From Fistulifera solaris (Eukaryota): a DNA stretch of 64,000 bases. Position numbers and translations under genes: made by a program. Below are positions 2,744 through 52,672 of the stretch, piece by piece (the stretch's first letter is position 1; the number at the start of each line of letters is the position of its first letter). The notes below the pieces were generated by a model. The model had not been told where the DNA came from, ran no database searches, and saw nothing but the letters and a program-made list of their open reading frames with translations. The stretch is taken from contig AP026148.1 of NCBI GenBank assembly GCA_030295235.1, positions 124,001 to 188,000 of the forward strand, in the 5' to 3' direction.

Positions 2744-3323
2744 AAGCATGAAGAAGGTTACGTCGAACTCGTCCTTTCACAATGAAAATTGGCGGCCACC
2801 GAGAAGATACGTCGCCATAATACTCTTCGCCTCCATGATCGAACAAATCTTTCTGGTTTGGCATAGAGTCATGATGCAATTCGAAGAGAGTTTAGTACAT
2901 CAAATCAAAATGGCTCATTTGACATCGGGTGGACCCACAAGTCGTGACTCTTCTCGCTCCTCCGTCAACAAATAAATAGACCGAATGGGATCTATCAACA
3001 GCGAATGTAAACTGTCATTTTGCACCTTTCGCTGTTTTGTATGTAAAGTAAACGCCAAATCAATTAAAGATTATTAAATAGATAACACTGTTCTCATACT
3101 TTACAACTTGCAACTAATTCGTAGGAGAAGCAACACAGGTCTCCTTCATTCCGTCATGAATAAAGTGGATCTTATGTGTATGGTTGTAGCATCAACGATA
3201 ACTAACCTCTTCCTATAAAAATGTCGATGTGCGTCCATGCGAGTGTGATCTTTTCCTGCTTTATTATTAGCACAAATCATTTCAATGTGGAAATGAATCG
3301 TTTGGAAGTTTCATTGTCCAATG

Positions 3324-3380
3324 TACTATATGCCACAGTGTTGTCTGTTTTTCACCACGACTGCATTTGAGTCATGAGTC
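3324..3380 (+). repeat. Copy of the dispersed ~60-bp tripartite motif
   Basis: TACTATA-N6-AGTGTTGTCTGTTTTTCA-CCACGACTGCATTTGAGTCATGAGTC; a weaker partner lies at ~3110-3161. Confidence 0.8.
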
Positions 3381-3568
3381 AGGGTCAAACAAACTACGGA
3401 CTAGTACCAGGTAATGATCTGCTAGATGATGCTTACATGTTATTTTCTTACTCGATATCTCTTGTGGCATTTCATAAAAACAATACCTGGGGGAAGGCTT
3501 TATTTTTTAGTTTATTTGACACGCCTACTAGACGCTCTAGTTCAACCGATCTCCATATCAATCGAGGA

Positions 3569-3601
<33 letters not shown>
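3569..3601. repeat. (GTC)11 microsatellite upstream of the TTC1-like gene
   Basis: Direct reading. Confidence 0.95.
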
Positions 3602-3795
3602 TCGCCCCTGTCCGTCACTTCGTGGTTACGTCACGTTTCTCTCTGCCTCGTTTCGTTTCTTGCGTTTGATGCGATCGCCTGATTATTTATTATTCATTCA
3701 ATCGATGATTTCTTCATTAAAAGAAACAAGAAGAATACATATTCTTATCATAACAGATTTCGATTCTGCTTTGCATAAACGTGTATGACTAGATC

Positions 3796-4644
3796 ATGAC
3801 AACTACATTCAGTAGTGAAGGCTTTGATTTAGATGCGGCGGCATCGTCCTCCAATGTCATTTACGAAATCGGTGGTGCTGTTTCCTCAGAACCAGAGACT
3901 ACGACTGTACCGGAATCGACGGCTACTACAGACGAATCTTCTACAGCCGAGTCGTTCAAACAAAAAGGCAATCAAGCTTTTCTGAAAGGAGAATATCTGG
4001 AAGCGTACGAATGGTATACGCAAGCGATTGAAGCCACGCCAGGTATGAAAGCGGAAGAATTACTGCAACAAAAGGAGGAATGGGAAAAAGAACAAACGAG
4101 GCTGGCGCGAGAGAGACTGTACGAACGTGATCAGAAAAAGAAAGAAGATGAAGGAGAAGAGCCTCTTGACAGCAATGCCACATCCGAGGCGACTCAGTTC
4201 ACCGCACCACCGCACGAACACGCCACCGAATTATCGATTTACTACGCCAATCGCGGAGCTGCACTGTATTCGTTGCAGAGATACGAAGAAGCTGTCCAAG
4301 ACTGCAATATTGCACTTTTGTGGAATCCAACATATGTCAAAGCGCTTGTACGACGATCGAAAGGACACGAACAACTGGAGCATTACGATTTGGCCTTGCA
4401 AGACGCGAAACTAGCCTTTGAATTGGGTGATAGTAAAACGAAACAATCGTTACGACCTGCCTTGACACGCTTACAGAAAGCCGAAGACGCGCGCTTGGAA
4501 AAGCTCAAAACCGAAACCTTGGGGCAACTCAAAGAGCTGGGAAATTCGATATTGGGCAACTTTGGCTTGTCATTGGACAACTTTCAGGCCGTCCAAGATC
4601 CGAATACGGGATCGTATAGCATATCCTTTCAGAACAACAAATAA
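3796..4644 (+). CDS. TTC1: Tetratricopeptide repeat protein 1-like co-chaperone
   Basis: TPR motifs (AESFKQKGNQAF...YTQAI; YANRGAAL...A...C..AL..NP.YVKALVRR) and the TTC1-type C-terminus LKELGNSILGNFGLSLDNFQAVQDPNTGSYSISF. Confidence 0.88.
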   Translation: MTTTFSSEGFDLDAAASSSNVIYEIGGAVSSEPETTTVPESTATTDESSTAESFKQKGNQAFLKGEYLEAYEWYTQAIEATPGMKAEELLQQKEEWEKEQTRLARERLYERDQKKKEDEGEEPLDSNATSEATQFTAPPHEHATELSIYYANRGAALYSLQRYEEAVQDCNIALLWNPTYVKALVRRSKGHEQLEHYDLALQDAKLAFELGDSKTKQSLRPALTRLQKAEDARLEKLKTETLGQLKELGNSILGNFGLSLDNFQAVQDPNTGSYSISFQNNK

Positions 4645-4775
4645 TAGAAACAGTAGTTTTAGTAGAATCACGATAGCGATAGGAGTAAAAAGACAGCATA
4701 ATCCAATTTTAGCATTAGATTCTATGATATTAAAAAGTTCTTTACAACCAAAGCTGCAGCTGCTTTCTATGTCGT

Positions 4776-7201
4776 TCAAGATCCTTCCGATGGATTAGGT
4801 TGACTCGCGGTGGTGGGAGATTTGGAACCATCACCGCCTCCTTCTCCTTGCGGTGTATTCCTTCCACTGCCACTGTTGTTAAAATTCGGCGAGAATCGAC
4901 CACCCTGTCCCCGGCCACCATTTCCTCGGCCTCTACCGTTGCGACCGGCATTACGTCCTCCCCGCGACCGCCGCCTGCGCCACCACGCCCGCCTCGACCA
5001 CGAAAGCCGTCATCCATAGGAGGAGGTCCTTGCTCATAGCCATACGGGTATGCCATGGGAGGGTAACCGTAAGGCGTGTGTATGGGAGGACCGACCATTG
5101 GGTATCGATTCATGGGATGCATAAATTGGGGAGGAAAAGCACGTTGTTGCTGTTGCGGATACATGCCATAGTATTGTACGTTGTAGTGCATGGGAACACC
5201 TGTTTGAGGAGGATGTTGCTGATGCTGTGTTTCAGATGAATGTTGCGCTTGTTGTGAGGATGTCGCTGCTTCGGGAACAGATGATGTTTCTCCTTCTTGC
5301 GGCTGAGATATTTCGGCTTGCTGTTGCTCTTCTGACGAAGTGGGAACCTTGGCATCATCTGCGGAGTCTGAAGAGGCAAGTGCATTGACGGGCACTGATG
5401 ATGCCTTTGCTGGAGGGGGTGGACCTTGTGGAGGCATTCCACCAGGCATGTGAGCTTGCATTTGCTGAGGATCCACACCGGGGTACGGATATCGCATACC
5501 AGGATACTGTGGATGGCCCATCATGTGCACCATGGCTATGAGCAAAGAAGAAAAAAAAAACGAAAAGTCGTGATTGAGAAACCATATGATCAGACGACAG
5601 GGAGACAAATCGGTTGGAATGATACTCACTGGGCTGTCCCACGGGGCCGTGCATGTACATGTGGGGCGCCAAAGGCATGCCAGTATTCGGGTCGTACATG
5701 ATGGGCATATGTTGACTGGGCGGTATGTTTTCGGGAGGCGGGACGCTCGCACTGCCTGGCGTAAACGATTTGGCGTTGATATTAAATGTGAACGACTTGG
5801 CATTGGCGTTCAACTTGGATTTCCCAACTTCCTTCGTTTCGGAAGAAATTGCTTGATTCTCCTCTTTGGATGCCTCTTCGGCTGGTTTCTCGGACTTGAC
5901 ATCTCCTTTATTCTCCGCGACTTTTTCCTCGTCTGGCTGTTCTTGCTTGCGGTTAGAAGTAACCGGCGTGGCTTCCGCAATTGACAACTCTTCCACCTTG
6001 GGAGTGCTGGGTACTACTACTACTACAGGTGCCGCGTCAATCTTGGGGGCATCCCCCGTTGCCGCCGCGGACGCAATCGTCTGCTTTTGCGATTTGTCTG
6101 CTTTGGCCACGGCCGCCCAATTCATAGGCTGCTTCTTGGGTTGTTCTTTCAAAACACCCGAATACAAATCCTCCTCATCGTAGTCTCCTTGAATTTTGTG
6201 ACCTCGTTCTTCGGCAATGTGTGGATTGGAACTGGCGGCACCCTCAATTTCTCTAGCCAATTTTTCTGCGTGTTCAATCTTTTCCTGATCCATGGTCGAT
6301 TTGTCGAGTTCCGTTGTGTAAAGATTCTCATCGTAGCTGGCCTTGACATTAAAGAGCTGCTCATTCGCTTTGAACTGATCCCAGCCACCAATGGATCCTT
6401 GTAGTCCAGCTTGTACCGGACGGGGCGCATTCCCCAACAAGGCATCCGCACGACTGTTCCCATTCCCACTGGAAGGAGGAGACGCAATCGGAGTTGTCCA
6501 GGCGGAACCAGCTGCCACCAATCCTTTGTTACCTCCCGAATTCTTTCCGCTAATTTCGGTATCCGTTTGAAAGCTTCCGTTCGGATTGCTACTGGTAACA
6601 TTGTTGTTGTTTGTCAAAGCATCCATGCGAATCGATTTCAAATGTAAATGCACGACCTGAGACATGTCTACCACAAGTGTTTGACCGGCCTTGACTCCAG
6701 CGTGTTGTTCTTTCGGTGCCTGAAGGATCGAGACGGCTTTGAGAACGAATTTATGGCGTTGATCGGCAGGCAATGAAGGAAAAGGCGTGGCCGTATGAAA
6801 GATTCCTCCGTACACGGCACCATCTACCAAGGTCATTTGTACTTTCTGTCCTACCATGTTGAGAAGCAAATGCAAAAATCGTTCGCGGAGAGCATCGACA
6901 TTGCTGGGTACCGCAGAAGACGATTTGGAGGAAAGCGACAAACCTGGAGGAGGTGTAACACTTTTCTGAAGCGGTTTACTCCACGCGTTCGGTTTCGTCG
7001 AAGTGCGTTTGCTGTACTCAGAGAAGAATAGAAAATATACAAGGTTAGATTCGAGTGTATCGACGTTAACGAAGAAGAAGAATAATAATAAGAAGAAGAA
7101 AGATCCGTCTCATTGATGGTGCCTTCGACTCCGAAAAACCGTACGTACCCAGCCGCATCTTCTTTCTTGACGCCCTTCATAGCGCCGCTGCTGCTGCTCA
7201 T
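4776..7201 (-). CDS. ATXN2: Ataxin-2/Pbp1 homologue (LSm, LsmAD, PAM2, RGG tail); 3 exons
   Basis: ATG 7201; introns 7148-7012 and ~5628-5536. Sm-like GQKVQMTLVDGAVYGGIFHT; LsmAD WDQFKANEQLFNVKASYDENLYTT...AEERG...DEEDLYSGV; PAM2 SKLNANAKSF and FNINAKSFTP. One missing G at the 4960-4963 run restores the RGG tail to TGA 4776 (as written, the frame ends at 4742). Confidence 0.9.
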
Positions 7202-7693
7202 GATGCTTTTTTCTGCTACAAGTTCTACGACCTTACTAGATAACAAGTGTGTTAACTTCTTACGGTTCGAACAATCGACGGATCGAATGATGAACGATTG
7301 AAAACACACAATGCGCAATAACAACGAGAGGGACGAGATCAAGAACCGATAAACGACGGTATCGGCGCAGGCGGTAATTAAGATCGACCAATAGTCTTTT
7401 TACAGCAGGCTGATGTGATCAGGGGTACTTATTGTGTAGCGTCGAGGTGTTGTCCTTGGTGTTGTTTACACCTTTGACCGCCGGACGCTGGATGGAGGCT
7501 ACAATGCGGCTCACGGACGGACGCTAACGTCCAAAAGCCTTCCTCCTCGAGTGAACCGATTTCCGGCACCTTCTATTATCAAGAGCAGATGGTAATGCTC
7601 CTGAAGCATTTAACAATAAGTTTATTAATGAATACGTGTGTTTTGTTGCTTTTGGTGACACTGTTGGATGTCTTGAAGAATAACATGATGCAT

Positions 7694-7745
7694 GACTCAT
7701 GACTGAAATGCAGTCGTGGAAACTCCGTCCATAGTTAATGTAAAG
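7694..7745 (-). repeat. Copy of the dispersed tripartite motif (core only well conserved)
   Basis: Reverse complement reads CCACGACTGCATTTCAGTCATGAGTC (7719-7694). Confidence 0.75.
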
Positions 7746-8055
7746 CAGGACTCTTCCCAAAACATTGCCGACTTATGGAGAATCGAGAAGTGTATTCCAG
7801 ATGCTCTTGGAATAAACATAAACCTATCTCTTTCCTAAATATAGAATTAAGGTATGTTGTTGGAGAGAGAAAATCAACTCGCTAATTATAAATTACTACT
7901 TTAGGATCCATCACTTTTTGCATGCAGGATGGTATTACAGTGCACTGTTTTCCTTTTACTTTGTACGGCAGGATTGGTTCTATTCACATGTTTGATTTGT
8001 TTGTTGAAGCAACTTCTGTATTGCTTGCTCCACTTGATTGACCCGAATGATTTAG

Positions 8056-8985
8056 TTATGCTTTCGGTTCCAGTTCAGGAATTCCACCTTGACTCATCGC
8101 CGACAGCTCCTTCTCGTAGCGCTTCCAATCACGCTGTGCCACGCGACGGTAAAAGTCTTTCTGCTTGTTGGGCAGTACCTTCCAACGACGCGAGACTTCT
8201 TTCGACAAATCGGTAAAGCTTAATTTACCATGAGTTTTACAATGAATGCGTTTCTCCGATCGATCGCGATTCCAGTGGCCTTGAAGCAAAGCGTCTTCTT
8301 TTTCTTTCGACCAATCGTGCTCTTTGTTGTTCAAAATACGATCGCGTTCGTCTCGAAAGAAGAAATTATAGGCCGATAGCGCTCGAAGTGGTCCGGGAGT
8401 GTTATCACAGGCCTTGTTGCATTCTGTTCTCTGGTGCATTTTCTTGCTTCGTTTCGTTTTCGGCGATTCCGTTCCCTCGACTACGAAATCATCGTTCCTC
8501 TTGGTGCGCTTATTGCGTCCCAGCGATACAGATTTACTGTCTTGCATGCCACATCGAACTTCTAGCTCAATTCTGTCTTCAACGGTGTTTCGAGTAACGT
8601 TCGAGACCTCCGGGGCCGAGTTGGAAAAGCGGTCATAATCGATGATATCCGATGTCATCAGTTCCGCTACATCCAAAGGAAGAAGATCGCTGTCACTCGA
8701 TTTGTATCCCGATTCTGGCTCCAATGGAACAATTTCTACGTCCGTCTCTTCGAGGGATGGAGAGACGCAGTAAATGTCGTGCCTCTGCTGTTTCATCATG
8801 ACAACGAATGGAGAAGAGCAAAGTTCATGTGTCGTCAATCGACCCTGTGGAAGCGTCCTGGCTTGTACAAATGATTGAATCGCGTCGGCTTCATCATACT
8901 TGGGCTGATAAGTCCATTCGGTTTCGTTGCCAAGGAGTCGCAACAAATTTACCATATCATTCGTCGTTGGTTCTGTTTCCGCCAT
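8056..8985 (-). CDS. HMG-box DNA-binding protein
   Basis: PLRALSAYNFFFRDERDRIL...HGKLSFTDLSKEVSRRWKVL...FYRRVAQRDWKRYEKEL. Confidence 0.88.
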   Translation of the reverse strand: MAETEPTTNDMVNLLRLLGNETEWTYQPKYDEADAIQSFVQARTLPQGRLTTHELCSSPFVVMMKQQRHDIYCVSPSLEETDVEIVPLEPESGYKSSDSDLLPLDVAELMTSDIIDYDRFSNSAPEVSNVTRNTVEDRIELEVRCGMQDSKSVSLGRNKRTKRNDDFVVEGTESPKTKRSKKMHQRTECNKACDNTPGPLRALSAYNFFFRDERDRILNNKEHDWSKEKEDALLQGHWNRDRSEKRIHCKTHGKLSFTDLSKEVSRRWKVLPNKQKDFYRRVAQRDWKRYEKELSAMSQGGIPELEPKA

Positions 8986-11029: not shown

Positions 11030-11182
11030 AAAAAGCACATGCACTCGAACCAGCAGCACCTCGCAGTCATTACAAAAGTCTGTAGATTAAATCATATGAC
11101 TATGAAGCATTATAAAAGATGTTTTCATTGACAATGTAGTTTAAATATATCAGTTTGCTGATTCGTATTGCGTTCGTGATAA

Positions 11183-12801: not shown

Positions 12802-13032
12802 TACCTCGTAAAGACGCTACCAGTATTTGGAAATTTTAGAGTCTCTGATAACGAATACGGGCAACAAGAAGAGGAAAAGAGTTATAGTCTGTTTTATTGC
12901 GTGATAACAGAATAGGAACAGGATGTTGTGACGATCCTTTGTCATTCAACTACTCTAAGTTACCAAATATTCAAAAAAATTGGAAAGGTCAAAACATCGA
13001 TCGTTCGATCGTATTGGCCCAGGAGTCTCGAT

Positions 13033-13275
13033 GTATGACCCGAAGTGTAAGCGACTTTTTCACACGACTGTATTTTAGTCATGAATCAACATTTTTCGAG
13101 CCAAAGTGTTTCCTATTCTCCGTGCAGTCTCTAGCTCTCTATGCATATAGGAGTGCATTCTATGCAAAAATTGCCTAAATCACGGCAATGACCTTTAGCA
13201 GCGTTTGCATGTTCTTCCTGTAGCGTTAGTATCAGTCGTAGGCGACCTTTCTCCATGGCGGCATTTCAGTCATGT
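13033..13275 (+). repeat. Two copies of the dispersed tripartite motif, ~191 bp apart
   Basis: AGTGTAAGCGACTTTTTCACACGACTGTATTTTAGTCATGAATC (13044-13087) and AGTCGTAGGCGACCTTTCTCCATGGCGGCATTTCAGTCATG (13234-13274). Confidence 0.75.
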
Positions 13276-14216: not shown

Positions 14217-14446
14217 GAAACATTTGAAATCATGAGACCATCTGGAGGATTTTTACGTCAGCAGGTGTCCTTTCTCTATTTAAAATCCTTCTTCTCATTC
14301 AACGACCATCAAGCTTGATTGTACTTCTGCCAACGGAGAAATGAATGTCGAAACGGTAATGCTATGAGGCGAAGCAGCGATCCGTTGCACATCGCCAACA
14401 AAAAAGAAATCGTGTAAAACGCATCCGTCCTAGCGGGTATGAAGTA

Positions 14447-15581
14447 CTACCTCCTGGGGGCGATAATTGGCTCAAACCCCTTCCGCGATTCCCCCGTGTA
14501 AATCATTTCCTACTGACTTTCTACGTGAATCCACGTAGAGGAACAAGGACACACGGAAACTTAACGAACTCGATCGACCATGACACAATCAACTGAAGGA
14601 TGCATAAAATTAAGACGGAGCAACAACAAAGGATTATAACGATTGTCAATTGGAAGCAAAGGGATACTGGAGGCGTTCCTTGAGGGTTGTTTGGAAGTAT
14701 TTTGCGAAAAGAACAGAGCGAACGCTGGTGTTTATCGGTGAACGACGGTGAGCAATGACGATCGCGAGGGCAAGAGAGTTTGCTTCGCGAGACGCCTTCT
14801 CTGCCTTTTCCAACAGCCTTCCGAGGGCTCAAAAAGTAACAATGCAGCAATCAGCAGCGTGAACAGGTTTTGGGGATATTAAGGGGTGTTTATTGCCGCA
14901 AAACTCTATTCGAAAAACGATGACGATGGCACAACCAAATGACGATGGACTTTTAATGCTTCGCCACGAAAAAGGCCCCAGTCTCGGCAAGTTGAACTAT
15001 CAGATGCTTTATTGTGGAAGAAATCGCTCTTATTGGGGGTATTTAAGTTGAAATTGCTAGGCTTTTCAAACACCAAAACAATCAACGTTCGCCCTCCAAA
15101 GAATTGCATTGCTGACGAAAGGTTTCCATAGAGGCTTACATAGGTCCGTGTAATTGCGAGGAGAGAAGCGACAATCAATAGGAGGGGTGTCTATAGGCGG
15201 AGCCGACTTTTTGATGAGGAATTTTGTCACGACAGGATATATTGCTTGCATGGAGGACAGCAACAAACACCTGCATCCGGCGTCGTTGTTGTCGTCCGTG
15301 TTGTGCTTCATCTTTCGGTCAAAACGAGAGAGAAAGACCGCGCCAGTGGACAAAACCGGGCACAAGAACTAAAAAAAAGGATTTAAGGTCATGTTTACTT
15401 GCATTTATTCATATTGAATGGTTTGTATTGCCATGAAAATCACCATGGTGATGCCTCCATCGGTGTGTTAACACGTTGGTGACGGAGGGAAATTTTTTGC
15501 CCCCTACGTAATATCACGTAGAATTTCAGTACAAAAAATTACACGAGCCACCGTGGGCCCATTATCGCCCCCCGGAGGTAG
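14447..15581. mobile_element. Non-autonomous Tc1/mariner (Stowaway-like) TIR element, 1135 bp
   Basis: TIRs CTACCTCCTGGGGGCGATAATTGGCTCA (14447-14474) and the reverse complement of 15554-15581 match at 25/28. TA flanks both sides (14445-46, 15582-83). A second inverted block lies at ~14495-14541 / 15501-15545. Confidence 0.82.
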
Positions 15582-16506
15582 TACCAGTAACAGTACAGTA
15601 CCAGTTACCAGTTAGAGTTTGAAATTCGTTACCTTCGTGGTTCGTGCGAACAGTTCCGTTTTTCATTCGAGCTAGCGTTTGGCTCAGAGTTCATGCTTGC
15701 TTGTTACATGTGCACTACCAGTACAGTGAACAGTAAAGAAGGACCACCGAAAGCAAACGAATGACGAATGACGAAGCGGACTTTAGTCTTTAGTTGTTTA
15801 GTGTTTTCAAAAGCTGAAAGCTCGAATCAACTGTGAACGATCTTAAATCCATGGAATAATTAAAATGTACTGGTAGTTCGAAACTGGACAGCTGATATTA
15901 CAGGTTGTGAAGATATCTGAGTAGATCTTAAGGCAAATATGGACGAAGAATTATAAAGAGCATCTTCTCCTGTTTCCTTTGAGCGTGCCTCCCTTTAAGG
16001 GATGAGATCTTTTTAAGAAGTATCATTACCATGTACATTACTTTAGACGGAAAATCCATAAATCCAATGTTCGTAATTTGTAAGGACTTCAAGCGCAAAA
16101 GGCGGCGCGCGGCGTGCTTCATGCTGAAAACAACGGTACAAAATGCAAACGCCATTCACAGTTTCGAAAAAGCTCACGTTGCAACTTAGGGCTTGACAAC
16201 ACTAATGTTGCATATTGCATGTGTGGTAGATTGACGTTACAATTTTCTCTACTCTTCTGCTTTTTCTTTGCTCATCTCATCAATCTTCGAAATGTCTGGG
16301 ACGTGTTTGGTGTTCTGTTGCAAGTTGCGAGCTCTGAGCGGTGTGCCACTTGCTACATCGACATGGCTACTGCCCAAAAGCATCGGGCAATCCTTTCCAC
16401 GTCCACATTACCAATCATAAAGTTTTTCATCTCGTATAGAACCTTCAACCAGTTTCATTTACAGCAGCATCTTTTTTCCTTTCATAAATAGAAGTAAAGC
16501 ACGAAA

Positions 16507-25035: not shown

Positions 25036-25564
25036 TTTTGCCTCTAAAATTGATGTGAACTAGATAGCTGTATGCTTTTCCTTGTTTCTCAAACGAAGAG
25101 AGGTACAATTATTGATTGAGCGAATGACTTTGAATGCAAGAGCTACTTGTAGTCGCGGGCGGTCGTTTTGCTGGATAGTTGATGCCGGTGTTGGAGTGAT
25201 TTTTGAATTACGCTCCATTTCGGTGTTTATGACACGGTTTTGACGAGATGTCGTTTGAGTCAATTATTTAAGGAAACTTAAGTACACTCTGACTGATATC
25301 TGGATACATGTTTAGAAGTTCCAAGAACGTCTGCCGCTTTCAGAAGCCGAAGTCCCGCGTTCAAAAGACCACCGTAATTTTAGTGCCGGAGTGACGCTGA
25401 AAGAAATTAACTTTTCGCCGATTTCAGGCGAATGTTAGAAGCTCGTCGGCGCATTGACTGCAAATGAATAATGATGTTGTTTCTGGAAACCATACCAGGT
25501 ATCCCCAGTCGTCTTTTGTATTTTCCATGTCGAAACTCCTTGCGAACGGTTGTCTTCCGGTCTG

Positions 25565-25618
25565 CTGTAGGCCAAAGTGTGGTATCTACGTAACCACGAC
25601 TGCATTCAGTCATGAATC
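25565..25618 (+). repeat. Copy of the dispersed tripartite motif
   Basis: CTGTAG-N5-AGTGT-N13-CCACGACTGCATTCAGTCATGAATC. Confidence 0.78.
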
Positions 25619-26004
25619 TAACTTCTCTAGGGCGACGCTGCGATCTGATCTTTGTTCGTTCTTTAAGAATGTTGTCTTTCAAATAGTCTTTATAATGATG
25701 GAATTATCTTGATTGAAGATTTGCATTGCACGGATCATTCTCAATTCGTAAGGCGCCCGAATGTGCACTACCGATATGTATCGTGAATGTCGCTGTGACA
25801 TCACGTCAATGCTTCCCAGGCGTCAGCCTTAACCCTAACTTTTGCAGCACGTCAGTGCTCAGGGCTTTTTCATTACGTACGGAGTAGTATTTTTCCTTTA
25901 TTGCATCGCAAGCAATAATACGCACAATAACGGCCTTGAAGAAGTAGTTACAACCACAGTTTCTACTGGCTGGATCATTTTAATAGCATTAAACAAAAGA
26001 GAGA

Positions 26005-28814: not shown

Positions 28815-29125
28815 CGCTCGGTCAAAAGCCTTATTCTATAAAATTAAGAAATGTTTTTTATGTTAATATGTCAAAAAATTGATTAACATAGATTTTGATG
28901 TGAAAATGAACTTCAAAAAATGGGGTAAATTAGAGGCGCAAAAGACATTTTTAACTTGTACTTGTACAGGGTGCTGCATTCGGCAACCACCCCATAATCG
29001 TTTACATAGTCACACCCGTTTACTCCATGTTGGTGGACCTTAATGGAATTTTTTTTGCTCGCGAGCGAAGCGAGCATTGGGAAGACGTCTTTCTCAATAA
29101 ATATTCGCGTCTCGTCGTTCGCACA

Positions 29126-29306
29126 CCCCCATATTTTCCGGGTAGGTCAAAACATCTCACGCCCATATTTTCTGGGTACGTCAAAACACCATCCCCATAT
29201 ATTTCCCGGTACATCAGCACACCCACCACCAAATTTTCCGGGTACGTTAAAACACAACTCGCCCATATTTTCTGGGTACGTGAAAATATCACACGCCCAT
29301 ATTTTG
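29126..29306. repeat. Tandem array, ~6 units of 33-34 bp, core CCCATATTTTCYGGGTAC
   Basis: Core starts at 29131, 29165, ~29198, 29231, 29265, 29299. Confidence 0.9.
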
Positions 29307-29354
29307 TTTTTATTCATTCGCTGATGGCTGATACTCCTTTGCGGCCCAGAAACT

Positions 29355-29435
29355 GGGAACGGCGTTAAAATTCTGCCTCATCGTAGACGCTACGTACCAT
29401 CTTTTACTGGGAGGCAGAATTTTAACGTCCTTCCC
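29355..29435. repeat. Inverted repeat (perfect 17-bp arms 29363-29379 / 29411-29427, extendable to ~25 bp)
   Basis: CGTTAAAATTCTGCCTC ... GAGGCAGAATTTTAACG. Confidence 0.9.
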
Positions 29436-33601: not shown

Positions 33602-36600
33602 TTATAAAGTTGAGCCGCCTTCCGTCAACCTTGCAAGACCAATAGGTCCTGAGGTTGCAAACGGGGTAAACGATCCAGACGCCTCATCTCCTTCTGTGAA
33701 TGGTATTAAGTAATCGTAAGTTTTGCGTTCAAAACTTATATTGTCATCTGGCATGGCAATATTGTACGCCATGGGTTGGGGACTCCATATTGAACTCATT
33801 TGGCGACGCGACCATTGGGCATCTGGCTTGGGGCCCACTGATCCGACATTTAGTGAATGCGCCGACTGTCTATGGAGTGTAAAGATATTGCAACCAGAAA
33901 AGAACTCAAAGCTAGCAAGATCGCCCATGGACGGACGCCTGCCAGGGTTCCTTTCCAAAAGATGCGTGATAAGTTCCCTTGCTGAGTCTTGAATTCCCGC
34001 TCCATGACTGTCAAGAAATAGAGCGTCAACGTTACCGCTAGATGAGTCTTCATGAAATGTCACAATCTTTTGGCGTGTGGTATGCTCATCGGAATCAAGA
34101 AGAGGCGGGCGGCCAGAGAGACACTGGTACATGACACAACCTAGAGCCCAAGAGTCTGCAGCTGGAGTGGGTATCGCTCCCAAAACAACCTCTGGCGGTA
34201 GGTATGCCGTAGTTCCCTCTATTCGGATATCATAGCCCGAAACATCCTCATTGACTTCCGTTCCGCCCGACTGTTGGGCCATTTCCGTGGCATCATCTAC
34301 AGATGCTTCAGCGCTTTGAGGCCCCGATTGCCAATCGCCGTCACGAAGGTTCTTTAGAAGGTTTTTTCGAGATCGAGGCGACTTTAAGTCTCGCCTCTGC
34401 GGTGAAGGGACGACAAGCACCGTAGTCAGTTAGTTTGACATGACCTGACTCAGTTATCACGATGTTCTCTGCCATAATGTGTGAAAATTTCTTTTGTTGA
34501 GAAACTATGAACAAGATGATGTGTAGGGAACAGCATCGATCACAAAACGGTACGTACCTGGTTTCAAATCAGAGTAAACGAGTCCAATGCTATGGATGCT
34601 ATCTAAAGCAGCTGCGACTTCACCGATGATGAACCGACAAGAGTCATGATCCATTGACCCGTGCTCACGTAAAACACTATGCAAGTCACCCCGACTGGCA
34701 TACTCAAGAACCATGTAAGCTCCTTCTCGAAATCGGAAACTGGAAACGAGCCTTGCTATACCGGGGTGTGACAGCAAGCGCAAAACTGCAATTTCTCGTT
34801 GAACAGAAGTCTCATATGACATTTCGCGAATCTTTTCGGTGGATATGATCTTCACAGCATATTCTGCCCACGACGATCTCGTCTTGGTACGATCAATCAA
34901 TCGCGCATACTTGACAACACTGAATGCACCCGATCCCAGCTCATGTCCAAACACTAGGTCATGAAACTTAAGAGACGGAAGAAGAGTCGGCGTTTCAGCG
35001 AGCTGTTGTTGGCTCCAGTCGGACATACCGTCGTGACTCGAGTCGGGGGGTTTTATTTTGTCCATATACTGCTGTACATAGTCGACGCCTTTGGAAGGAG
35101 ATGAAGTTGTGTTGTTGTGATCATCACGTGTGTCTTCGCGGGAAAGAAATGGATTCATTTGCTCAGATGAACGCTTAGGGTGTTGTTTGCTCGAAGATAT
35201 TGCCCAAGGTGCAACACCCGTAATCGTAGAAGGTGGTTGCGATCTCAAGGGACCATTATTGGACGAGCTTATAGCCCATGGCGCTACGCCAGTAACTGTT
35301 GATGGCGGTTGAATCCGATTTTCTTGACGGGTGTTTTGCGCTGCGAGAGACGTGGTTTTTGGTATGCCTGCTTTTGCTGATGGTGCCGGAGGTCTCCACG
35401 TGCCCATTGAAGCTTTTAACGATAGCTTTTGCGGAACTTCAGGGGCAGCAGGCAGCTGTTTAGCAATACTTTCAGTGGTTACTACGTGCGAAGACGGAGG
35501 ATTGATTGTCGAGTTTGTGGCCACTGCAGAGAACAGTTTGGTACACAGGGATTCAAATCGCGTGGCATTGGACTGTTGCAATTGGTATAAAACATTATAA
35601 GTCATCTTGCGTACCGTAGGATTCCAGGACGGTTCGCTCCGGACGAGGGCGGGTAAAACAACACTCAAGGATATATCAAAGTGCGCCTCTATCATTTCAG
35701 AAAATGTTTTATTCCGAAACAGTTGCAAACCGCATTCTGCAACGCGCGAATGCTCACTCGACATGAGACCTCCCGTCACGCGTAGCAGTTTTGTCCACCA
35801 GCTTGGTAGCGCTTCCACAGTGGTCATCAATTTCAATAGTGTCTCGACTTCATGCAGCAGCAACACCTGCTTCGATGTATTACCGGTCAGCGCCAATTCT
35901 TCCAGCAGTGCGGGCATTATCAATTCCATCCAGTCTGATTTCTTTTGAATCAAAGTAGCGAGACACTGTGTTAACACTTCATGGTAGAGCTCAATGACCG
36001 GAGTCTGATCACGCCAAAGAACCACAGCATTTGTTCTATGAAGTGGTATCAAATGCTGCGTAATCAAGTGACGATATATCAAATTGTTTTGATCAAACGA
36101 CTCCGCAGAGACGCCCAAAAGTATAAGACGCAAAAGGCGCAAAGAAAGGGCAATCGAGGCTGCCTGTGTGTTTTCTTGACGCAACGATGCACCCGAAGAC
36201 GAGCCTGAATGCACAAAATCATGCCACATGCGTCCCAATAATTTTCGAATCAGTTTACGGACGGTAGCATCGGCGTGGCGATATAGAGCCATTATTATCA
36301 TCTCCAGGTGCTGAATGTGCTCCTCCCACTCTTCCTCTAATCGAGCCGTCAGCTGCACAACAAACTGGTATTGCTGCAACCGCGATGACATGTCACTGGA
36401 GGGATGATTTTGGCGCAAATGTTGTGTATACGCATTCATGTGTGAGCGAAGGATCTGCAATTCTTTCAGATGGACGAAAAAGGCTTTGACAAGCGTATGA
36501 TCCTTTGAATCATGACGAAGCAGATGAATCCACAAGTGCCTATCCTCTTGATTAGCGGCGGAAGCCAAGTTATATTCCATCCATTGTATCACCCACCGTG

Positions 36601-36937
36601 TCACCAAGAATCCATACCACACTTGATGGAGTGTAATGTCGTTGGGTGACAGTGACGATTCGAGCAATGCATTCTCTCGAAAACTCATGATTGCCGCGTG
36701 ATTTCCCATTGCATCTTCCAGCGGATCCCACGCTATATTCAAAAGCTGAACGGTTGCTTTGTACACGGCAGAAGAAAGTGGAATACAATCTTCGACCGTG
36801 AGACCTTCGTAAGTCATCGTATCACGAATCCCCAACCATCGTTCGATCGTCTGTATCGGATCCGTATCTGGTTCGATCTCCGCAGCCCGCAACACTTGTG
36901 TCACGGCCGCAGTAAATTTGTTGATTGTCTCTGTCAT
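33602..36937 (-). CDS. PP2A B'/B56-like domain fused to a PDK1-like AGC Ser/Thr kinase; 2 exons
   Basis: B56-like IPLH...YHEVLTQC...NTSKQVLLLHEVE...SEHSRVAE...WNPTVRK. Kinase LGSGAFSVV, YAVKII, YSDLKP|ENI (intron 34557-34469), LTDYG, EGTTAYLPPE, DSWALGC. One extra A at 34362-67. Confidence 0.88.
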
Positions 36938-37236
36938 TTCGTAGAATGCGAAGCACAAAAACGAGGCGTTGCACAACAAAGTGTAATCGACTTGGTGGAG
37001 GACCAAGGCTTTACTCAAAAGTACCCGATCGACAGATAAGGCGACAAGTGCTATTTATATATACACACAATGAAATGATGTAAAGAAGTGGAAGAGGTGG
37101 GCCTTTTGTGCAACATGCATGACGATAAAACCTTTCGTGTTTGTGTTGCTTTCAAACGTTTTCGAAGAGGAGTGAGTCGTCGTCGACGAATACAGGGTCA
37201 GGGGACCCGGACCCGACCCTGTGAACGAAGCACTTT

Positions 37237-37505
37237 TACTATAGTGTTGAAGTGTTGTCTGTTTTCAACAAGACTCGATTTCAGTCATGAGTCGTGAAGC
37301 CTCTTGTTCAAAAATACGAGAAGTTCGCGTTGCCTCTAAACCCATCAGCGACAGCCTATCTTCATCCCAGTTCAGCTCACTGTATAAACCAACTAAAAAG
37401 AGGGCTTCTTTGAATCCTTTCGACTTGCGCAGTCCACAATAGTCCTTGCTATAGCGTCAAAGTGTAGGCTACTTTGTTTCAAGACTGATTTCAGTCATGA
37501 GTCGT
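37237..37505 (+). repeat. Two copies of the dispersed tripartite motif, 210 bp apart
   Basis: CTATAG-N6-AGTGT...CAAGACT(C)GATTTCAGTCATGAGTCGT at 37239-37295 and 37449-37505. Confidence 0.85.
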
Positions 37506-41965: not shown

Positions 41966-42121
41966 CCTTGTGAAAGCATTTCCTCTTGTTTCACTTCTAT
42001 TCATCATAGTCGCCGAAGATAATAAGTAAAGGTGCTTTCAATCAAACTCTTTGGTTGAGCGAACGCGGTGCACATAAGATCTATTTGTGCATTTGGGCAC
42101 GTGGCATGGCGTCTCCACAAA

Positions 42122-42378
42122 TCCCCAGAAAATCTGGGTGTGCGGTGTTTTCATGTCCACTGATAATATTTTGGTTGTGGATTTTCACTCTCACAGAAAA
42201 TCTGGGTGTTGGTAACTCCATGAACACAGAAAATCTGGAAGTTGGTAACTTCATGAACACAGGAAATCTGGAAATGTGGTTACGTCACTTCCACAGATAA
42301 TCTGGGAGTGCTATTTTTCAAAATACAGAAAATCTGGGTGTGTAGTGCTTCACTTCCACAGATAATCTGGGGGTGTAG
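42122..42378. repeat. Tandem array, 8 units of 32-34 bp, core CAGAWAATCTGG
   Basis: Core starts at 42126, ~42160 (degenerate), 42194, 42227, 42260, 42294, 42326, 42359. Confidence 0.92.
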
Positions 42379-42504
42379 TGTCTTTCCTACGTTTCAACCT
42401 CACCTTGTTCCCTACGGCGCTAAATTCGTTGTTTTAGTACGATAATTTCGTTTTAGCTTTAACAACCTTTCTCAAATAGATCAGCTGCTGATTGCAAAGT
42501 TCAA

Positions 42505-47265: not shown

Positions 47266-47388
47266 TCTCATTTGGTTGCTTGAACAAGTATTCTATCGCC
47301 GCATCTGAGAAGAAACTTTCAAGTCTTCACGAACGTAAAGGTCCTTTTTATTTTTTTTATGAGTTGTATAAGTTCGTGTCTCATGAAA

Positions 47389-48243
47389 CTAATAACTAGT
47401 CGCCTGCATACCGAGTCCTACGCCACCCGAAACTGCAGAATTTGGATACATGAGGGTTTTACCTGAAGATCCCGAGAAAATGGGACTGACCACTCGGCAG
47501 GCAGGACAAATAACAAATTCAGCATCCGAAATACAAATAAGAGGAAGCTCACAACTGAAACATTTTGTATGGGTACTGTTTCCACACTTGATCGCATTCC
47601 ACGTTTCTTCAGAACCCCTGAGACGAGCGAAAATACCAGGGCTTATCTCAATCTGTAGATCTGGTTTGGCACGCGGAGCCGAAGAATCATATTCGGGTCC
47701 GTGCATGGCGGAATACTTCTCAAACGCCGACGCGCCGTAGTTCACTGTGTCTAGGTTGTTGCTATCCAAAGAAAAATTTCTTGTTCTTGAGATTCCACGT
47801 TTAGGCGCCGGCTTCAAATTTACGTAATCCTCTTCCGGAATGAATTCGTACGCTCCCGGGCCTAACGTATCCACTGGGTAATCGCGAGAGGAATAAGTCG
47901 TCGATGGCCCAGTTTTCGTTCTTCGCGTGAAAGAGCTACGCTGTTCGAAGAGCAAAGGGTTCGGAAGCTTGGGTTTTCCTTTTCCAAGCGTATCCTTCAA
48001 GCATGCGTCTTCGATTGATTGAAGCATCGTCTCCGTGGGGTACAGCTGCCTCAGCTCTTTTGCCTTTCGAAGCTGCCGCGACGAGTGAACTAATCCTTTC
48101 CGCTGCGAATAAGAAACCACGTTCACTCCTACAGAAGTTGAGACTAGATTTGACAAGTCAAAGACTGCTCCTCTCCATTCGATTGCCAAGTCCAGCGGAG
48201 CTTCGTTGGGGCACGAACCGGAGGAGAATCCGTAAGTGTTCAT
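47389..48243 (-). CDS. Hypothetical protein with a C-terminal CxxC-x15-CPxC zinc-ribbon domain
   Basis: IEISPGIFARLRGSEETWNAIKCG....CFSC...CISDAEFVICPACRVVSP...GGVGLG; paralogous to 16507-17010. Confidence 0.78.
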   Translation of the reverse strand: MNTYGFSSGSCPNEAPLDLAIEWRGAVFDLSNLVSTSVGVNVVSYSQRKGLVHSSRQLRKAKELRQLYPTETMLQSIEDACLKDTLGKGKPKLPNPLLFEQRSSFTRRTKTGPSTTYSSRDYPVDTLGPGAYEFIPEEDYVNLKPAPKRGISRTRNFSLDSNNLDTVNYGASAFEKYSAMHGPEYDSSAPRAKPDLQIEISPGIFARLRGSEETWNAIKCGNSTHTKCFSCELPLICISDAEFVICPACRVVSPIFSGSSGKTLMYPNSAVSGGVGLGMQATSY

Positions 48244-48661
48244 GAATTGTTGATTGAATAGATCGTATGGCAGGTTGCTCGCTTATTCTTTCATTCGAAG
48301 ATACATTACCAGGTACTGCCTTCTTGGCTCTTTCGACAACAAGAACTTCTTTGTTGTCGCTTTTATGTTGTTCTCGTGCGAAGGAGAAGAATACTCTTCC
48401 AAACCAGTGATGAATACAAACAGACCGGGCGCGAATTGGGAATTCATGTCACGTCGATACGGATGGATTCTATACACAAAATGGGGCCTCCCAACTTCAC
48501 GACCAGAAGCCTATGTGTGAAGCTGATCGTCTGTCATCCGTCATCCGTCGCATGTGTCGTTGTGAGAGCAAGGCAGCAAGGCAGACCGGAAAGAGGAAGG
48601 CATCTTGCAAACTTTGTTTTCTGCCCCTGCACTGTCAATCCTGAAGTACTAAAAGTTCAAC

Positions 48662-48720
48662 CCTTGTTCCCTAAACGTTACTGGTATCCTTGTTCCCTAG
48701 ACGTTATCCTTGTTCCATAG
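48662..48720. repeat. Three short direct repeats CCTTGTTCC(C/A)TA(AACGTT/GACGTT)
   Basis: Direct reading; the same 12-mer also occurs at ~42403. Confidence 0.7.
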
Positions 48721-49261
48721 TCTATAGTCTTGTGTTCGTCATTACTAACTCCAGTAGGTCGGTCCTCACTCGTAACGTCTTACTACTACAAAAAAGTGTT
48801 CAAAGTTACCGGTTACCGACCGAAAAAAATTGTAATACGGAGTAATGGACAAGGACAACGAGCAAATAGGCATCCCTACAAGATTATATCTAATCGATTC
48901 ACGTGTCAGTTGGTTCTGTCTTCTGTCACCTATTAGGAATTAGAAATTAGAAATGGCGTAAGCAGTAACAAACCGTCGAACAGCAGTGTAGATTTGCAAG
49001 TACACGACAACTCACTCTGGTTTCGGTACCGGTACCGGATAGTATTGGAATTTGGAATTTCGAAGTTTGCTTCGTGCTTTTCTCATGGTAGCCAATAGCC
49101 AGTAACCTTAATTTTGACGTCGTTCTGCCATTATGATCGGAAGAAAAAGCGCAACACGTGTGAAGCTATTATAGGTCCTTGGTGTGAAGACCCGGATCGA
49201 ACGTTTCATCGCAACGAAATACTTGAAACTTTGCAACACAAATTAACAGAAAGAATGACAA

Positions 49262-50997
49262 ATGGCGTTACCACCAGCAGACAATACGACGACAGATCGA
49301 ATAGCTTCGGAGGAACGAGCACGACAACTGACATTACTCGAAGAAGAGCGAGCCCGCACGGCAGAACAATGGGAACTGTGCTATGCGGATGCACACAAAG
49401 CGAGTCCTTTATCCAAATTTGATCGGTATGATCTTGCCGTCGATCACGAAGCGGGAGATCGGGCTACCGAAATTAAATTGGGGAGCTTTGCGCGGCCCCA
49501 CATGCGTGCTCTGCACTGCGCGTGGGTTTCGTTCTTTTAGCGTTCACCATTTGGTTTGCACCGGCACCGCTGCTCAAAGAAATACAGGATACGCTTGGTC
49601 TTTCGAAAAAGAAGTCTGGACGAGTAGTATCACGTCCGATTGTACAGCCATTTTCACACGAATTGTAATGGGGCCTGTGTGCGATGCCTTCGGAGCCAGA
49701 ATACCCATGGCCCTCGTGTTGATCGTCGCTAGTATCCCCACTGCCTGCGTCGGCTTGGTGCAATCGGCAACGTCGCTGGCCATTGTACGTCTCTTTATAG
49801 GAGTTGCGGGTTCTTCGTTTGTCATGGCGCAATTCTGGCCGTCGCGAATGTTTTCCAGAGAGATTGCTGGCACAGCGAACGGTATCGTCGGTGGATGGGG
49901 CAATTTGGGCGGCGGATGGGCGCAACTCATGATGGGAAGTATCCTATTTCCTGTCTTCCGTGATTACTATGAAGATTCGGAAAAAGCATGGCGGGTTATT
50001 TGTGTTATTCCTGCTTGTTTCGCATTCGCTTGGGGATGCATCGTGCCATTCCTGGCGGATGATGCTCCATTGGGGAACTACACAACAATGCGAAAAACTG
50101 GATCGACGGATCGTATTTTTTTGACAACCAGCTTGCGTTCGGGGGCTACGTGGAATACTTGGATTCTGTATGCTCAGTATGCTTGCTGTTTTGGAGTTGA
50201 ACTCGTGATGAATAATGCTTCCGTTCTGTATTACACATCTGAGTTTGATATGACCACAGAGAAAGCTGCCACATTTGGATTTCTGTACGGCAGTCTCAAC
50301 ATTTTTGCGCGTGGATTAGGTGGCTATTTAAGCGACCGTCTCAATATGTATGCGGGTATGCGGGGGAGATTATGGTTACAAACTGGACTCCCTTTTTATG
50401 GAGGGAGTTCTAATTATTGCGTTTGCTTCCACCAAGACTTTGGCAGGCGCGGTGATAACCATGTGTATATTTTCTCTTTTACTCAAGCAGCAGAAGGTGC
50501 GATTTACGGAGTCGTCCCATACATCTCGAAGCTTTACACTGGCTCTGTCTCGGGATTTGTCGGTTCGGGGGGCAACATGGGCTCCGTGTTATACGGATTT
50601 TGCTTCCGGGCTATGCCGTATCGTGATGCGTTCTTGATGATGGGTAGCATCGTCATGATGTCATCGTTCTTGACAATGTTCATTAAGATCCCATGCCACG
50701 CTGGTATGTTTTGGGAGAAGATAATCATGCTGTGATCCAACAGCGGGAACGATTTAGACATCAGCAGAATGCCGAACTTTCTAGGAGGAATCAAACTGAA
50801 GGCGGCCTGGAAACGGAACTCGAGAGAGGGGATGTTGCCAATTCCGCTGTGCGCGATAGAGACGAGTCTGTTGAAAAAACGTCGATACAATAATAATTGA
50901 TTTGGGAGATTTCAAGCCGAGAGAGAACGAAGAAGGTATGAACATAATGCAAACGGCAGATGATGCCGACGGTGATGATTCGGGCCGGGGTCCATGA
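49262..50997 (+). CDS. NRT2: High-affinity nitrate transporter (NRT2/NarK, MFS); ~6 homopolymer frameshifts
   Basis: SFARPHMRALHCAW, R..MGPVCD.FGAR, GTANGIVGGWGNLGGG, YACCFGVEL, NIFARGLGG..SD, GMRGRLW, QAAEGAIYGVVP, GSGGNMG. Indels at 49535-38, 49606-10, 50390-92, 50477-80, 50713-15 and probably 50874-79. Confidence 0.93.
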
Positions 50998-51364
50998 ATT
51001 TGAGCTGGATTAGGTCTAGGGTACCAAGACATTTTTAATTATTTTCTATTTGACGCTTGTGTCACTTCAAATCCTCCATCGATTCCAGCGCTAGTTCGGT
51101 TTTTGAGAATTTTCCTACGGCAGCGAAAGCGAAACGAAGTTTGGAGCATTATTTTGGCAGTTTGAAATGCTCAGTTTTTTAAAGTGAAATTGATTGAATG
51201 CCTAGCAACTGCGCATGTACGTCAACCGTCATGCACAAAACGTTATGCAATGGAAAAGACGATGATCCATAAATGAGTTATTTAAGTTGACTTTTACCAT
51301 TCAATAAGTCGCCCATCTTGAGTCTCCTGCAAGTCAATCTAGATTGGGTATTGCATCAGCCGTC

Positions 51365-51833
51365 ATGGGAATACATTCAATCCACGTGTTCGATCGCAAA
51401 GGCAAAACGTTGTTCACGAAGCGGTACGCCGAAGAGGATGCTCCTGACGAAGAGTTCGCCGCTGAGCAACGAAAGCTCGTCTTTGGAATGCTATTTTCAC
51501 TCAAAGAAATCGCATCTTCACTCAGTCCTGCGAAAGAAGACAGTATCCACTCGGTGCAAATCGGCGCCAGTACATTGTACACTTTAGAAACAGCGAGTGG
51601 ATTAAGATTTGCTCTTTACTTGGATCGAGTCGGGGAGGACGAGAGCAATGTCGAGAAAAAAAGCATCAACGATTCGCTCTGCATTGCAACATATCTATAA
51701 CAATTTATGGATCAATCAAGTCACACGATCGCCCCTCTACGACCCCGTCTCTCCAAACGTGAACGAGACAGGCTTTGAGCAACATTTGGATACTTATCTA
51801 TCTAGTTTTTCGTCACAGTCTTGGTATAAGTAA
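51365..51833 (+). CDS. TRAPPC1: TRAPP complex subunit 1 (Bet5, sybindin family)
   Basis: IHVFDRKG..LF, EQRKLVFGMLFSLK, LYTLETASGLRF, IRSALQHIY..LW...V.RSPL. One extra A in the 51656-62 run. Confidence 0.88.
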
Positions 51834-52225
51834 TGATGGCAAAGAGACAAGGAAGCAGACAGATGAAAGATTCGGCTTCTTAAGACTGTCGCTACGCCTG
51901 CAGCGAGCGCCCTTCTCGGGATAACCGAGCTTCGTTATACCCCTGAACGTCGATACTCCTGATATTGCCGTCCCTTTCATTTGTGATCAATGTTAGCTCC
52001 AAGATGTGGCCGAATAAAAACAATGTTTATCAAAAGAGATATTTGGATTTTCCTTGCTTTATTTCCTCGTGTCTTCAAACTTAGACGGTACCTTACCGGC
52101 CCAACGGTAATATCGACGCAACAACCCTTAGTTCAAGCTAGGTAGATCGTATCATCGATCGCCATTCACTCTCATGCTAAAGACGTCGTTATTCATTGAG
52201 CAAATGCGATCAAAATTGTAAAAAA

Positions 52226-52672
52226 AGCACGGATAGATATTCAAGTTCGGATTATCCTAGCGGATCATTCATTTTCGAATTACCGACACCACGACTAAAT
52301 TGCAGTCATGAGGAAAAATACGAGGCTTTTCTGCAACTTATAAGCATCAGTTGTTCCTGCAATCTTGTCTCTGTTAGCCTATATCATCAATTGGTATCAT
52401 TCATAGTGCACGGATACATTCAAGATGTGGAATATCCTAGCGGATCGTTCATTTTCCAGGTACCTGGTACTATCGCACCTAGTGTTCGATCAAGAAAACC
52501 ACGACCGGATTGCAGTCATGAGTACAAGTACATTTCTTTGGAGCCAGAATGCAATCAACGCATACTTCGCTTTGCGAGTTTGACAAATATATCTGTTCTG
52601 GTTCCATAGCACCATTTATAGTGCACAGATACGTTTGATATTTAGAATATATTAGCGATCGTTCATTTTGGC
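52226..52672. repeat. Degenerate tandem repeat, ~180-215-bp unit, ~2.3 copies
   Basis: GCACRGATA..TT..A...T..GA.TAT..TAGCG(G)ATCRTTCATTTT recurs at ~52227, ~52408 and ~52623; the CCACGAC...CAGTCATGAG core recurs at 52289 and 52499. Confidence 0.85.

What the first reader, a model, noticed from the sequence alone, without database searches (positions are those of the whole stretch)
3110..52525. Unnamed dispersed intergenic element: tripartite ~60-bp motif with fixed spacing, often paired ~190-220 bp apart
Seen: at least 10 copies, all outside the gene models called here. Cores are at ~3137 (weak), 3355, 7719 (minus strand), 13062, 13253, 25594, 37268, 37480, 52289 and 52499. Consensus is CTATA-N6/7-AGTGT-N~13-CCACGACTGCATTTCAGTCATGARTC. 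In six copies AGTGT lies 32-33 nt before AGTCATGA and CTAT (or a one-base variant) lies 11-12 nt before AGTGT, while the bases between diverge. The core has dyad symmetry (GACTG-N5-CAGTC, TCATGA). Four loci carry pairs spaced 218, 191, 210 and 210 bp. Inference: conserved boxes with conserved spacing suggest a protein-bound or structured functional unit (chromatin organiser, origin, insulator, TF site or small-RNA gene) in a roughly nucleosome-length monomer. An old satellite or MITE relic is the alternative.
Basis: partly seen in the sequence, partly recalled or inferred. Interest (0 to 1): 0.8.

Follow-up and report, generated by a model that had tools for sequence, protein, structure and literature searches.

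The report
Mobile repeat with a conserved palindrome
A family of short repeats, present in a few thousand copies between the genes of a hybrid alga, has spread like a mobile element, yet eight bases of its palindrome changed about four times more slowly than neighbouring DNA after insertion, which points to a site that a host protein still needs.

Summary
The motif is real: 9 of the 10 listed copies hold (3137 does not) and the spacings are as stated. It is not a stand-alone 60-bp element but the conserved end of a ~219-bp monomer, about 4,000-5,000 copies genome-wide, non-coding, single or head-to-tail. Young copies at unlinked loci and copies in one subgenome only show mobility. No target duplications, terminal inverted repeats, Rfam match or mobilising enzyme were found. 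The genome carries two homoeologous chromosome sets, which allowed a test after insertion. In orthologous copies the dyad bases GACT-N7-AGTC are 136/142 identical, against 67/90 in the loop and 78-82% for neutral DNA. A small hold-out agrees (44/47) but is borderline alone. There are no compensatory changes, so sequence, not hairpin structure, is kept. Best reading: a rolling-circle-type or satellite-like repeat whose dyad is bound by a host dimer and kept by selection. The protein and its job are inferred, not shown. It is not a U6/U2-type promoter, has no fixed position relative to genes, and differs from the published diatom 'ARS motifs'. The scan probably noted this family before in other windows of this genome; the selection test is new here.

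The parts
3326..3381 (+). Module: CTAT box (3326), AGTGT box (3337), dyad core (3355-3377)
   Evidence: HMM 3286-3388, E 3e-15; orthologous core in C25
3137..3159 (+). Doubtful copy: right-half resemblance only, 12/23 mismatches; not counted as a member
7697..7719 (-). Perfect dyad core; AGTGT box absent in this copy, present in the C25 orthologue
   Evidence: HMM 7658-7803
13033..13088 (+). Module with core 13062-13084, first of a pair
13085..13252 (+). Decayed monomer body between the paired cores
   Evidence: z=8.5 for 13085-13208 against the monomer consensus
13253..13275 (+). Degenerate core (4 mismatches), second of the pair
25521..25728 (+). Best-preserved monomer stretch; boxes at 25565 and 25576, core 25594-25615 with 1-nt deletion; the C25 site carries extra younger units
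   Evidence: HMM E 2e-23
37239..37293 (+). Module with core 37268-37290, first of a pair
37449..37503 (+). Module with core 37479-37500 (1-nt deletion), second of the pair; lies in a mechanical stop-to-stop ORF that the homoeologue comparison does not support as coding
52289..52311 (+). Core whose upstream boxes are deleted here but present in the C25 orthologue
52312..52469 (+). Monomer body between the paired cores
   Evidence: z=7.7 for 52312-52454
52470..52524 (+). Module with core 52499-52521
52522..52680 (+). Further partial monomer body without a following core
   Evidence: z=5.2

Best explanation
A lineage-restricted dispersed repeat (~219-bp monomer: body, ACTATAG box, N5, AAGTGT box, N13, dyad core) that spread as single and multimeric copies, and whose dyad GACT-N7-AGTC is now a binding site for a dimeric host protein kept by purifying selection at many loci. 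Shown: the repeat anatomy, recent mobility, exclusion from coding DNA, and slower change of the eight dyad bases after insertion. Inferred, spread: DNA rolling-circle copying by a Helitron-type enzyme in trans, read on the minus strand as many 5'-TC starts at the dyad and one CTGA end (my odds about 45%); circle excision and reinsertion by host repair about 30%; an RNA intermediate about 20%. Inferred, role: position-independent chromatin architecture (boundary or replication/loop anchor) rather than a core promoter, because copies sit in every type of intergenic gap at any distance and orientation.
For: Mobility: 97% identity over 300 bp between unlinked loci L035/L094; homogeneous arrays of 5-11 units; 14 of 27 C25 cores have no aligned core in C26, four such sites inspected. 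Constraint after insertion, cores picked on one subgenome only: GACT/AGTC 136/142 identical, loop 67/90, position 4 59% (18 of 22 cores aligned), against 77.5% at four-fold sites and 82% in aligned non-coding DNA. Simulated neutral evolution with the same picking rule gives 0.78-0.84. Tetramers intact 27/30 against 222/471 controls; p 0.001-0.006 after allowing for one-lineage change only. Generic short palindromes show no such excess (0.82-0.84). Flank-only ascertainment gives the same column pattern. No compensatory double change at the four stem pairs in 167 distinct cores, and both half-sites tolerate the same A-to-G change. 0 of 22 cores lie in homoeologue-supported coding DNA, which covers 52%.
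Against: The eight positions were chosen after seeing the data. The hold-out is small: 44/47 from 6 pairs, with 4 further cores unaligned; p=0.02 against 0.82, 0.06 against 0.85, 0.23 against 0.89; arm-versus-loop contrast p=0.077. All contiguous data come from one chromosome pair. Whole copies are not clearly retained more often than other non-coding DNA (18 of 22 against 74%), and many are present in one subgenome only, so a single site is often dispensable. Spacing along the chromosome is not significantly even (P=0.064 and 0.30). No binding protein and no mobilising enzyme were found (0 matches for PF14214, PF05970, PF00589). Ectopic gene conversion could mimic part of the pattern.
Confidence: 0.55

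Rival explanations
1. A purely selfish non-autonomous element or dispersed satellite. The dyad matters only to its own copying enzyme, and old copies look conserved because non-allelic gene conversion or re-insertion rewrites the core.
For: Clear mobility and arrays. New units land beside old ones (C25 site opposite window 25594). The same variants recur (C4A, C10G, T21C). The loop is slightly below neutral identity (74%). Conversion among element copies is documented in Drosophila (PMC4384637, abstract).
Against: Orthologues share private derived variants inside and beside the core, and the adjacent 13-nt spacer is at the neutral level (79%) although it is near-random across the family. Conversion tracts would therefore have to be only a few bases long.
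Confidence: 0.27
2. The hairpin is an RNA signal: the 3' stem-loop of a retroposon or retrozyme-like repeat, or a small-RNA gene.
For: Arrays tend to stop at or just after the last core (92 of 144 clusters have no body downstream). A 7-nt duplication follows some cores. The minus-strand stem tolerates G-U pairs at three positions.
Against: No Rfam match. Folding z-scores of +1.2 to -1.6 in 6 of 6 folds. No covariation. No A-tail or target duplication in 7 copies examined. The right end is fuzzy, not sharp. By eye no hammerhead core (consensus recalled).
Confidence: 0.1
3. A core promoter or snRNA-type promoter (upstream element plus TATA-like box) for neighbouring genes.
For: Tripartite fixed spacing: box 17-18 nt before the core in 95 of 194 copies (95 of the 127 that have the box); CTAT 11-12 nt before it in 67 of 83. 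Always non-coding.
Against: Not upstream of U6 or U2 (best matrix score -10 or lower in 4 of 4 loci). Found in divergent, convergent and tandem gaps, 120 to over 2,000 nt from coding DNA, in either orientation.
Confidence: 0.08

Closest known systems
Dispersed satellite-like repeats tied to Helitron/Helentron elements (review PMC12628747, passages; DINE-1/HINE, PMC4067079, passages)
   Same: Short head-to-tail arrays and single monomers in gene-rich DNA, a conserved palindrome, no target duplication. The review describes arrays with many 5' ends and one 3' end, which fits the minus-strand reading here.
   Different: No subterminal inverted repeats, no TT or A^T target shown, no GC-rich terminator hairpin, no Rep-helicase partner found. 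Constraint after insertion is not part of those descriptions as far as I read them.
Element-borne host binding sites, e.g. ISX sites for the Drosophila dosage-compensation complex (PMC4384637, abstract); B2-CTCF (recalled)
   Same: A mobile element disperses a short site that is then under selection.
   Different: Here thousands of sites on all chromosomes sampled; protein and function unknown; no binding data.
The three 'centromere/ARS' motifs published for Fistulifera solaris (bioRxiv 10.1101/2021.11.10.468027, parts 1-3 of 6 read)
   Same: Dispersed, clustered non-coding motif; shares the short word TTCAGTC-N4-RTCA with the right half of the core.
   Different: A different family: 110 exact matches in G000, lying at the fixed 3' end of a 5'-truncated, sometimes A-tailed repeat with no dyad and no boxes.
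CryptonS (PMC3212892, passages) and Replitrons (PMC10288648, passages)
   Same: No TIRs; a TATGG-like word occurs in the first box; hairpin near an end.
   Different: Copies do not begin and end at TATGG; no terminal direct repeats; no tyrosine recombinase match; Replitrons were not detected in diatoms by that paper.

Membership tests
Helitron (canonical) | 5'-TC start and CTRR-3' end | tested here: inconclusive
   On the minus strand the dyad starts with TC and the rare left segment ends in CTGA (8 of the 9 core-linked copies seen, but the search word contained it). The left segment is in only 9 of 144 clusters and the dyad end is fuzzy.
Helitron (canonical) | Insertion between A and T | tested here: not met
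   The base before TC on the minus strand is a pyrimidine in 91% of 53 terminal cores; T follows CTGA in 4 of 9.
Helitron (canonical) | GC-rich 16-20-nt hairpin ~10-15 nt before the 3' end (feature recalled) | tested here: not met
   Only a 4-bp stem overlapping the end of the left segment (by eye).
Helitron/Helentron | Autonomous Rep-helicase partner with the same ends | tested here: inconclusive
   0 matches for PF14214 (control rang nowhere) and PF05970 in an assembly with frameshift errors; a small canonical-looking Helitron does occur.
Helentron/HINE (DINE-1-like) | 12-15-bp subterminal inverted repeats | tested here: not met
   Longest inverted word between the two ends is 5-8 nt, A/T-rich, in 7 of 7 copies with the left segment.
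Helentron/HINE (DINE-1-like) | Flanked by T runs, TT target | tested here: not met
   Flanks show no T run after the terminal core.
MITE | Terminal inverted repeats and target duplication | tested here: not met
   Longest shared flank word 3-5 nt in 7 of 7.
SINE / LINE-dependent retroposon | tRNA/5S/7SL head, fixed 3' tail, target duplication | tested here: not met
   No tRNA or Rfam hit in the window; fuzzy end, no A-tail.
Retrozyme / ribozyme satellite | Self-cleaving ribozyme core with covariation | tested here: not met
CryptonS | TATGG terminal direct repeats and tyrosine recombinase partner | tested here: not met
   Homology runs through the box on both sides; 0 matches for PF00589 with all 14 controls ringing (this model may miss Crypton enzymes).
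Dispersed satellite-like repeat | Head-to-tail monomers of conserved length, locally homogenised | tested here: met
   69 of 81 same-strand neighbour distances are 181-271 nt (overlapping loci partly counted twice); adjacent units 48-100% identical, mostly above the best match elsewhere.
Exapted host binding site | Position-specific constraint after insertion | tested here: met
   hold-out borderline.
Exapted host binding site | Binding by a host protein and a phenotype on mutation | not testable with these tools
   Needs pull-down, ChIP and editing.
Known TE in Repbase/Dfam | Sequence match to a curated family | not testable with these tools
   Neither library is offered.

The most novel reading that the evidence does not exclude
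The dyad is a sequence-defined chromosome-architecture site (replication origin, boundary or loop anchor) of this diatom lineage, about one cluster per 16-17 kb, that is installed and turned over by its own mobile carrier. It would be the first sequence-specific element of this kind in diatoms, where origin recognition was reported to be non-specific (bioRxiv 10.1101/2024.07.07.602421, passages).
Probability: 0.22. Interest if true: 0.85.

Novelty: new variant of a known kind. Interest (0 to 1): 0.52.

Why it matters
Diatom non-coding DNA is little understood, and no insulator or sequence-defined origin turned up in the papers I searched. If the constraint holds genome-wide, this gives a defined 15-bp bait with built-in neutral control positions and thousands of natural variants across two subgenomes. 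That makes the question directly testable and could help episome design in an oil-producing alga. If it fails, the family is an ordinary dispersed repeat.

Tried and rejected
Rfam scan of the window: only a chance microRNA-like hit on an unrelated hairpin at 29363. tRNA scan: none. Collection scans with the 20-base core pattern: 0 in viral, metagenome and prokaryote contigs. A looser pattern gave 9 metagenome loci, 0 of 9 with boxes or body; these collections hold few diatoms, so the range of the family is untested. Expression: no RNA holder listed. One run behaves as DNA and three as spliced RNA contigs; lack of cover over the copies is no evidence. Strand polarity along the chromosome: not found (10 switches in 25 clusters, P=0.43; 14 in 22, P=0.95). 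Even spacing: not significant. Loop inversion between the arms: 4 of 136 sites, too few for a flip-flop mechanism. Telomere repeat beside a core: 1 of 203, so a telomere-primed Penelope-like origin was dropped. Composite element with the 33-bp repeat: 1 upstream and 4 downstream of 52 clusters, and the 33-bp arrays predate the insertion at two sites, so it was read as a landing place, not a part. Hammerhead, spliced-leader and phage-origin resemblances were recalled from memory and dropped on inspection. I listed 164 ORFs beside cores but did not scan them; only 25 window ORFs were scanned against Pfam, with no transposase among them. Supplements of the two bioRxiv preprints are closed; the tested 'centromere' fragments there might contain this module and I could not check.
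Full report
Observation. The ten sites were read on both strands. Nine are members; 3137 is not confirmed. The motif is far above chance: 377 exact matches in G000 against 0 for the reversed pattern, 219 against 4 for the upstream boxes alone, and 28 profile hits (25 at E<0.01) in 264 kb of contiguous DNA against 0 in the reversed sequence. A matrix scan gives 32 cores in 414 kb of C26 and 32 in 360 kb of C25, so about 4,000-5,000 in 51.7 Mb (extrapolated). Contigs of an evenly deep, DNA-like run cover the 13062-13253 pair, so it is not an assembly artefact.

Anatomy. The motif is the end of a ~219-bp monomer (49 non-redundant of 66 units, mean pairwise identity 58%). In 145 clusters there are 95 single cores, 36 pairs and 14 longer rows; young rows hold 5-11 near-identical units. 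This explains the 190-220-bp pairs. A distinct 15-base left word precedes the first core by 50-109 nt (mostly 72-78) in some young copies (7 of 13 hits, plus 2 with imperfect cores; 9 of 144 clusters; 65 exact matches genome-wide against 0). On the right, 92 of 144 clusters have no monomer body after the last core, and conservation fades over four bases rather than stopping sharply. Young rows begin at various phases. No target duplication or terminal inverted repeat was found in 7 copies examined.

Context. The neighbours are ordinary eukaryotic genes (TPR, ataxin-2-like, HMG box, kinase, ELP3, MFS; 12 of 25 ORFs had a Pfam match). Earlier scan notes call the organism the diatom Fistulifera solaris; I did not test this with proteins, but a motif published for that species occurs 110 times in G000. 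None of 22 cores lies in coding DNA supported by the homoeologue, which covers 52%; 4 of 64 fall in mechanical stop-to-stop ORFs. They sit in divergent (4), convergent (4) and tandem (14) gaps with no fixed distance or orientation, and not upstream of U6 or U2.

Mobility. Two unlinked loci share 97% over 300 bp. Many copies are in one subgenome only (14 of 27 C25 cores and 4 of 22 C26 cores have no aligned core; some of these may be losses). No Helitron, PIF1 or tyrosine-recombinase domain was found in G000; these negatives are weak, because one control rang nowhere and the assembly has frameshift errors. The minus-strand reading (many TC starts, one CTGA end) resembles the Helitron arrays described in a review (PMC12628747, passages; the primary paper was not seen), but the target-site and hairpin tests fail. 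It may work like a rolling-circle element; it is not filed as one.

Test after insertion. C26 has a collinear homoeologue, C25. Neutral yardsticks: 9,372/12,090 (77.5%) at four-fold sites and 82% in aligned non-coding DNA. I picked cores in C26 only and read the aligned C25 bases; 18 of 22 aligned and 4 were dropped. GACT and AGTC were 136/142 identical, the loop 67/90, position 4 59%, distal flanks 81%. The reverse direction gave 101/104 from 13 of 27 cores, largely the same pairs. Simulation with uniform neutral change and the same picking rule predicts 0.78-0.84 at all positions. I noted the prediction before fetching new DNA. The hold-out was small: 22/23 from 3 of 5 new cores and 22/24 from 3 of 5 cores in chance homoeologous loci, loop 23/29; pooled 44/47, p=0.02 against 0.82 but 0.23 against 0.89, and one of the two parts fell just short of the 0.93 I had predicted. 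Matched tetramers: 27/30 intact against 222/471; this control is too lenient because the picked state is probably ancestral, and against a one-lineage ceiling p is 0.001-0.006. With strict flank identity the figure is 13/15 against 175/352. Generic palindromes show no excess. Copies found by a flank-only profile (33 hits against 1 control; 22 sites with a core within 8 mismatches, 21 tabulated) show 90-100% at these eight columns and 57-76% at positions 4 and 10-12 (the profile was partly trained on the same region). The upstream boxes do not pass the stricter test (65/69).

Structure or sequence. There is no compensatory change at the four stem pairs in 167 distinct cores, folds are unremarkable, and Rfam is silent. 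Invariant pairs say little by themselves, but the closing pair varies on one side only. A dyad read in double-stranded DNA by a dimer is the simplest fit (inference).

Comparison and novelty. Closest are dispersed satellite-like repeats tied to Helitrons and element-borne host binding sites (see Closest known systems). The published 'ARS motifs' belong to another repeat. Listings from five literature searches showed no description of this element; the library is partial and Repbase/Dfam were not available. Papers seen: bioRxiv 2021.11.10.468027 parts 1-3 of 6; passages of bioRxiv 2024.07.07.602421, PMC3212892, PMC10288648, PMC4067079, PMC5485032, PMC12628747; abstract of PMC4384637. Five earlier notes on this genome seem to describe the same family (their letters are withheld, so identity is inferred) and left a host role open.

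Verdict. A real repeat family with mobile origin and statistically supported, position-specific constraint on its dyad after insertion, from one chromosome pair and with a borderline hold-out. Host binding site 55%, selfish element with conversion 27%, RNA signal 10%, promoter 8%. Interest 0.52.

Noticed in passing
L090, L099, L102, L103, L107, L109 around 1100-1600; C26 outside the window: The motif published as a centromere/ARS consensus lies at the fixed 3' end of a 5'-truncated repeat, up to 98% identical between loci, with an A-run in one copy; its first 100 listed places favour one set of contigs. It looks like a retroposon end, which bears on the published reading.
   Followed up: partly
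window 29355-29435: An 81-bp hairpin with 25-bp arms is a member of a small MITE-like family: at least 13 relatives in held DNA.
   Followed up: partly
window 29124-29338 and 42117-42383: 33-34-bp tandem repeats of another dispersed family; at two sites the C25 homoeologue has the ~219-bp repeat inserted in or beside such arrays.
   Followed up: partly
window 14444-15584: A 1.1-kb stretch between 31-bp inverted repeats, with about three times the depth in the DNA-like run and a poly(A)-ended RNA contig; frames are broken by single-base errors. Possibly a transcribed multicopy TIR element; absent at the homoeologous place.
   Followed up: no
L031 ~970-1160 and C25 near 187.2 kb: A small non-autonomous element with canonical Helitron-like ends (TC start, hairpin, CTAG), nested in or beside the arrays.
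   Followed up: no
C25 near 165.9 kb (opposite window 25.8 kb): An array ends in two telomere hexamers; the C26 site has a similar remnant. 1 of 203 cores.
   Followed up: partly
L020 and C26 near 258.1 kb: Two unlinked arrays share ~180 bp of downstream DNA; in C26 it leads into what looks like a hAT transposase remnant (by eye), so arrays may sometimes ride on other elements.
   Followed up: no
G000:C21:647543-648234: Two copies of the left word face each other 690 bp apart; not inspected.
   Followed up: no
window 34505-37054: One frame carries both a PP2A B56 domain and a kinase domain.
   Followed up: no
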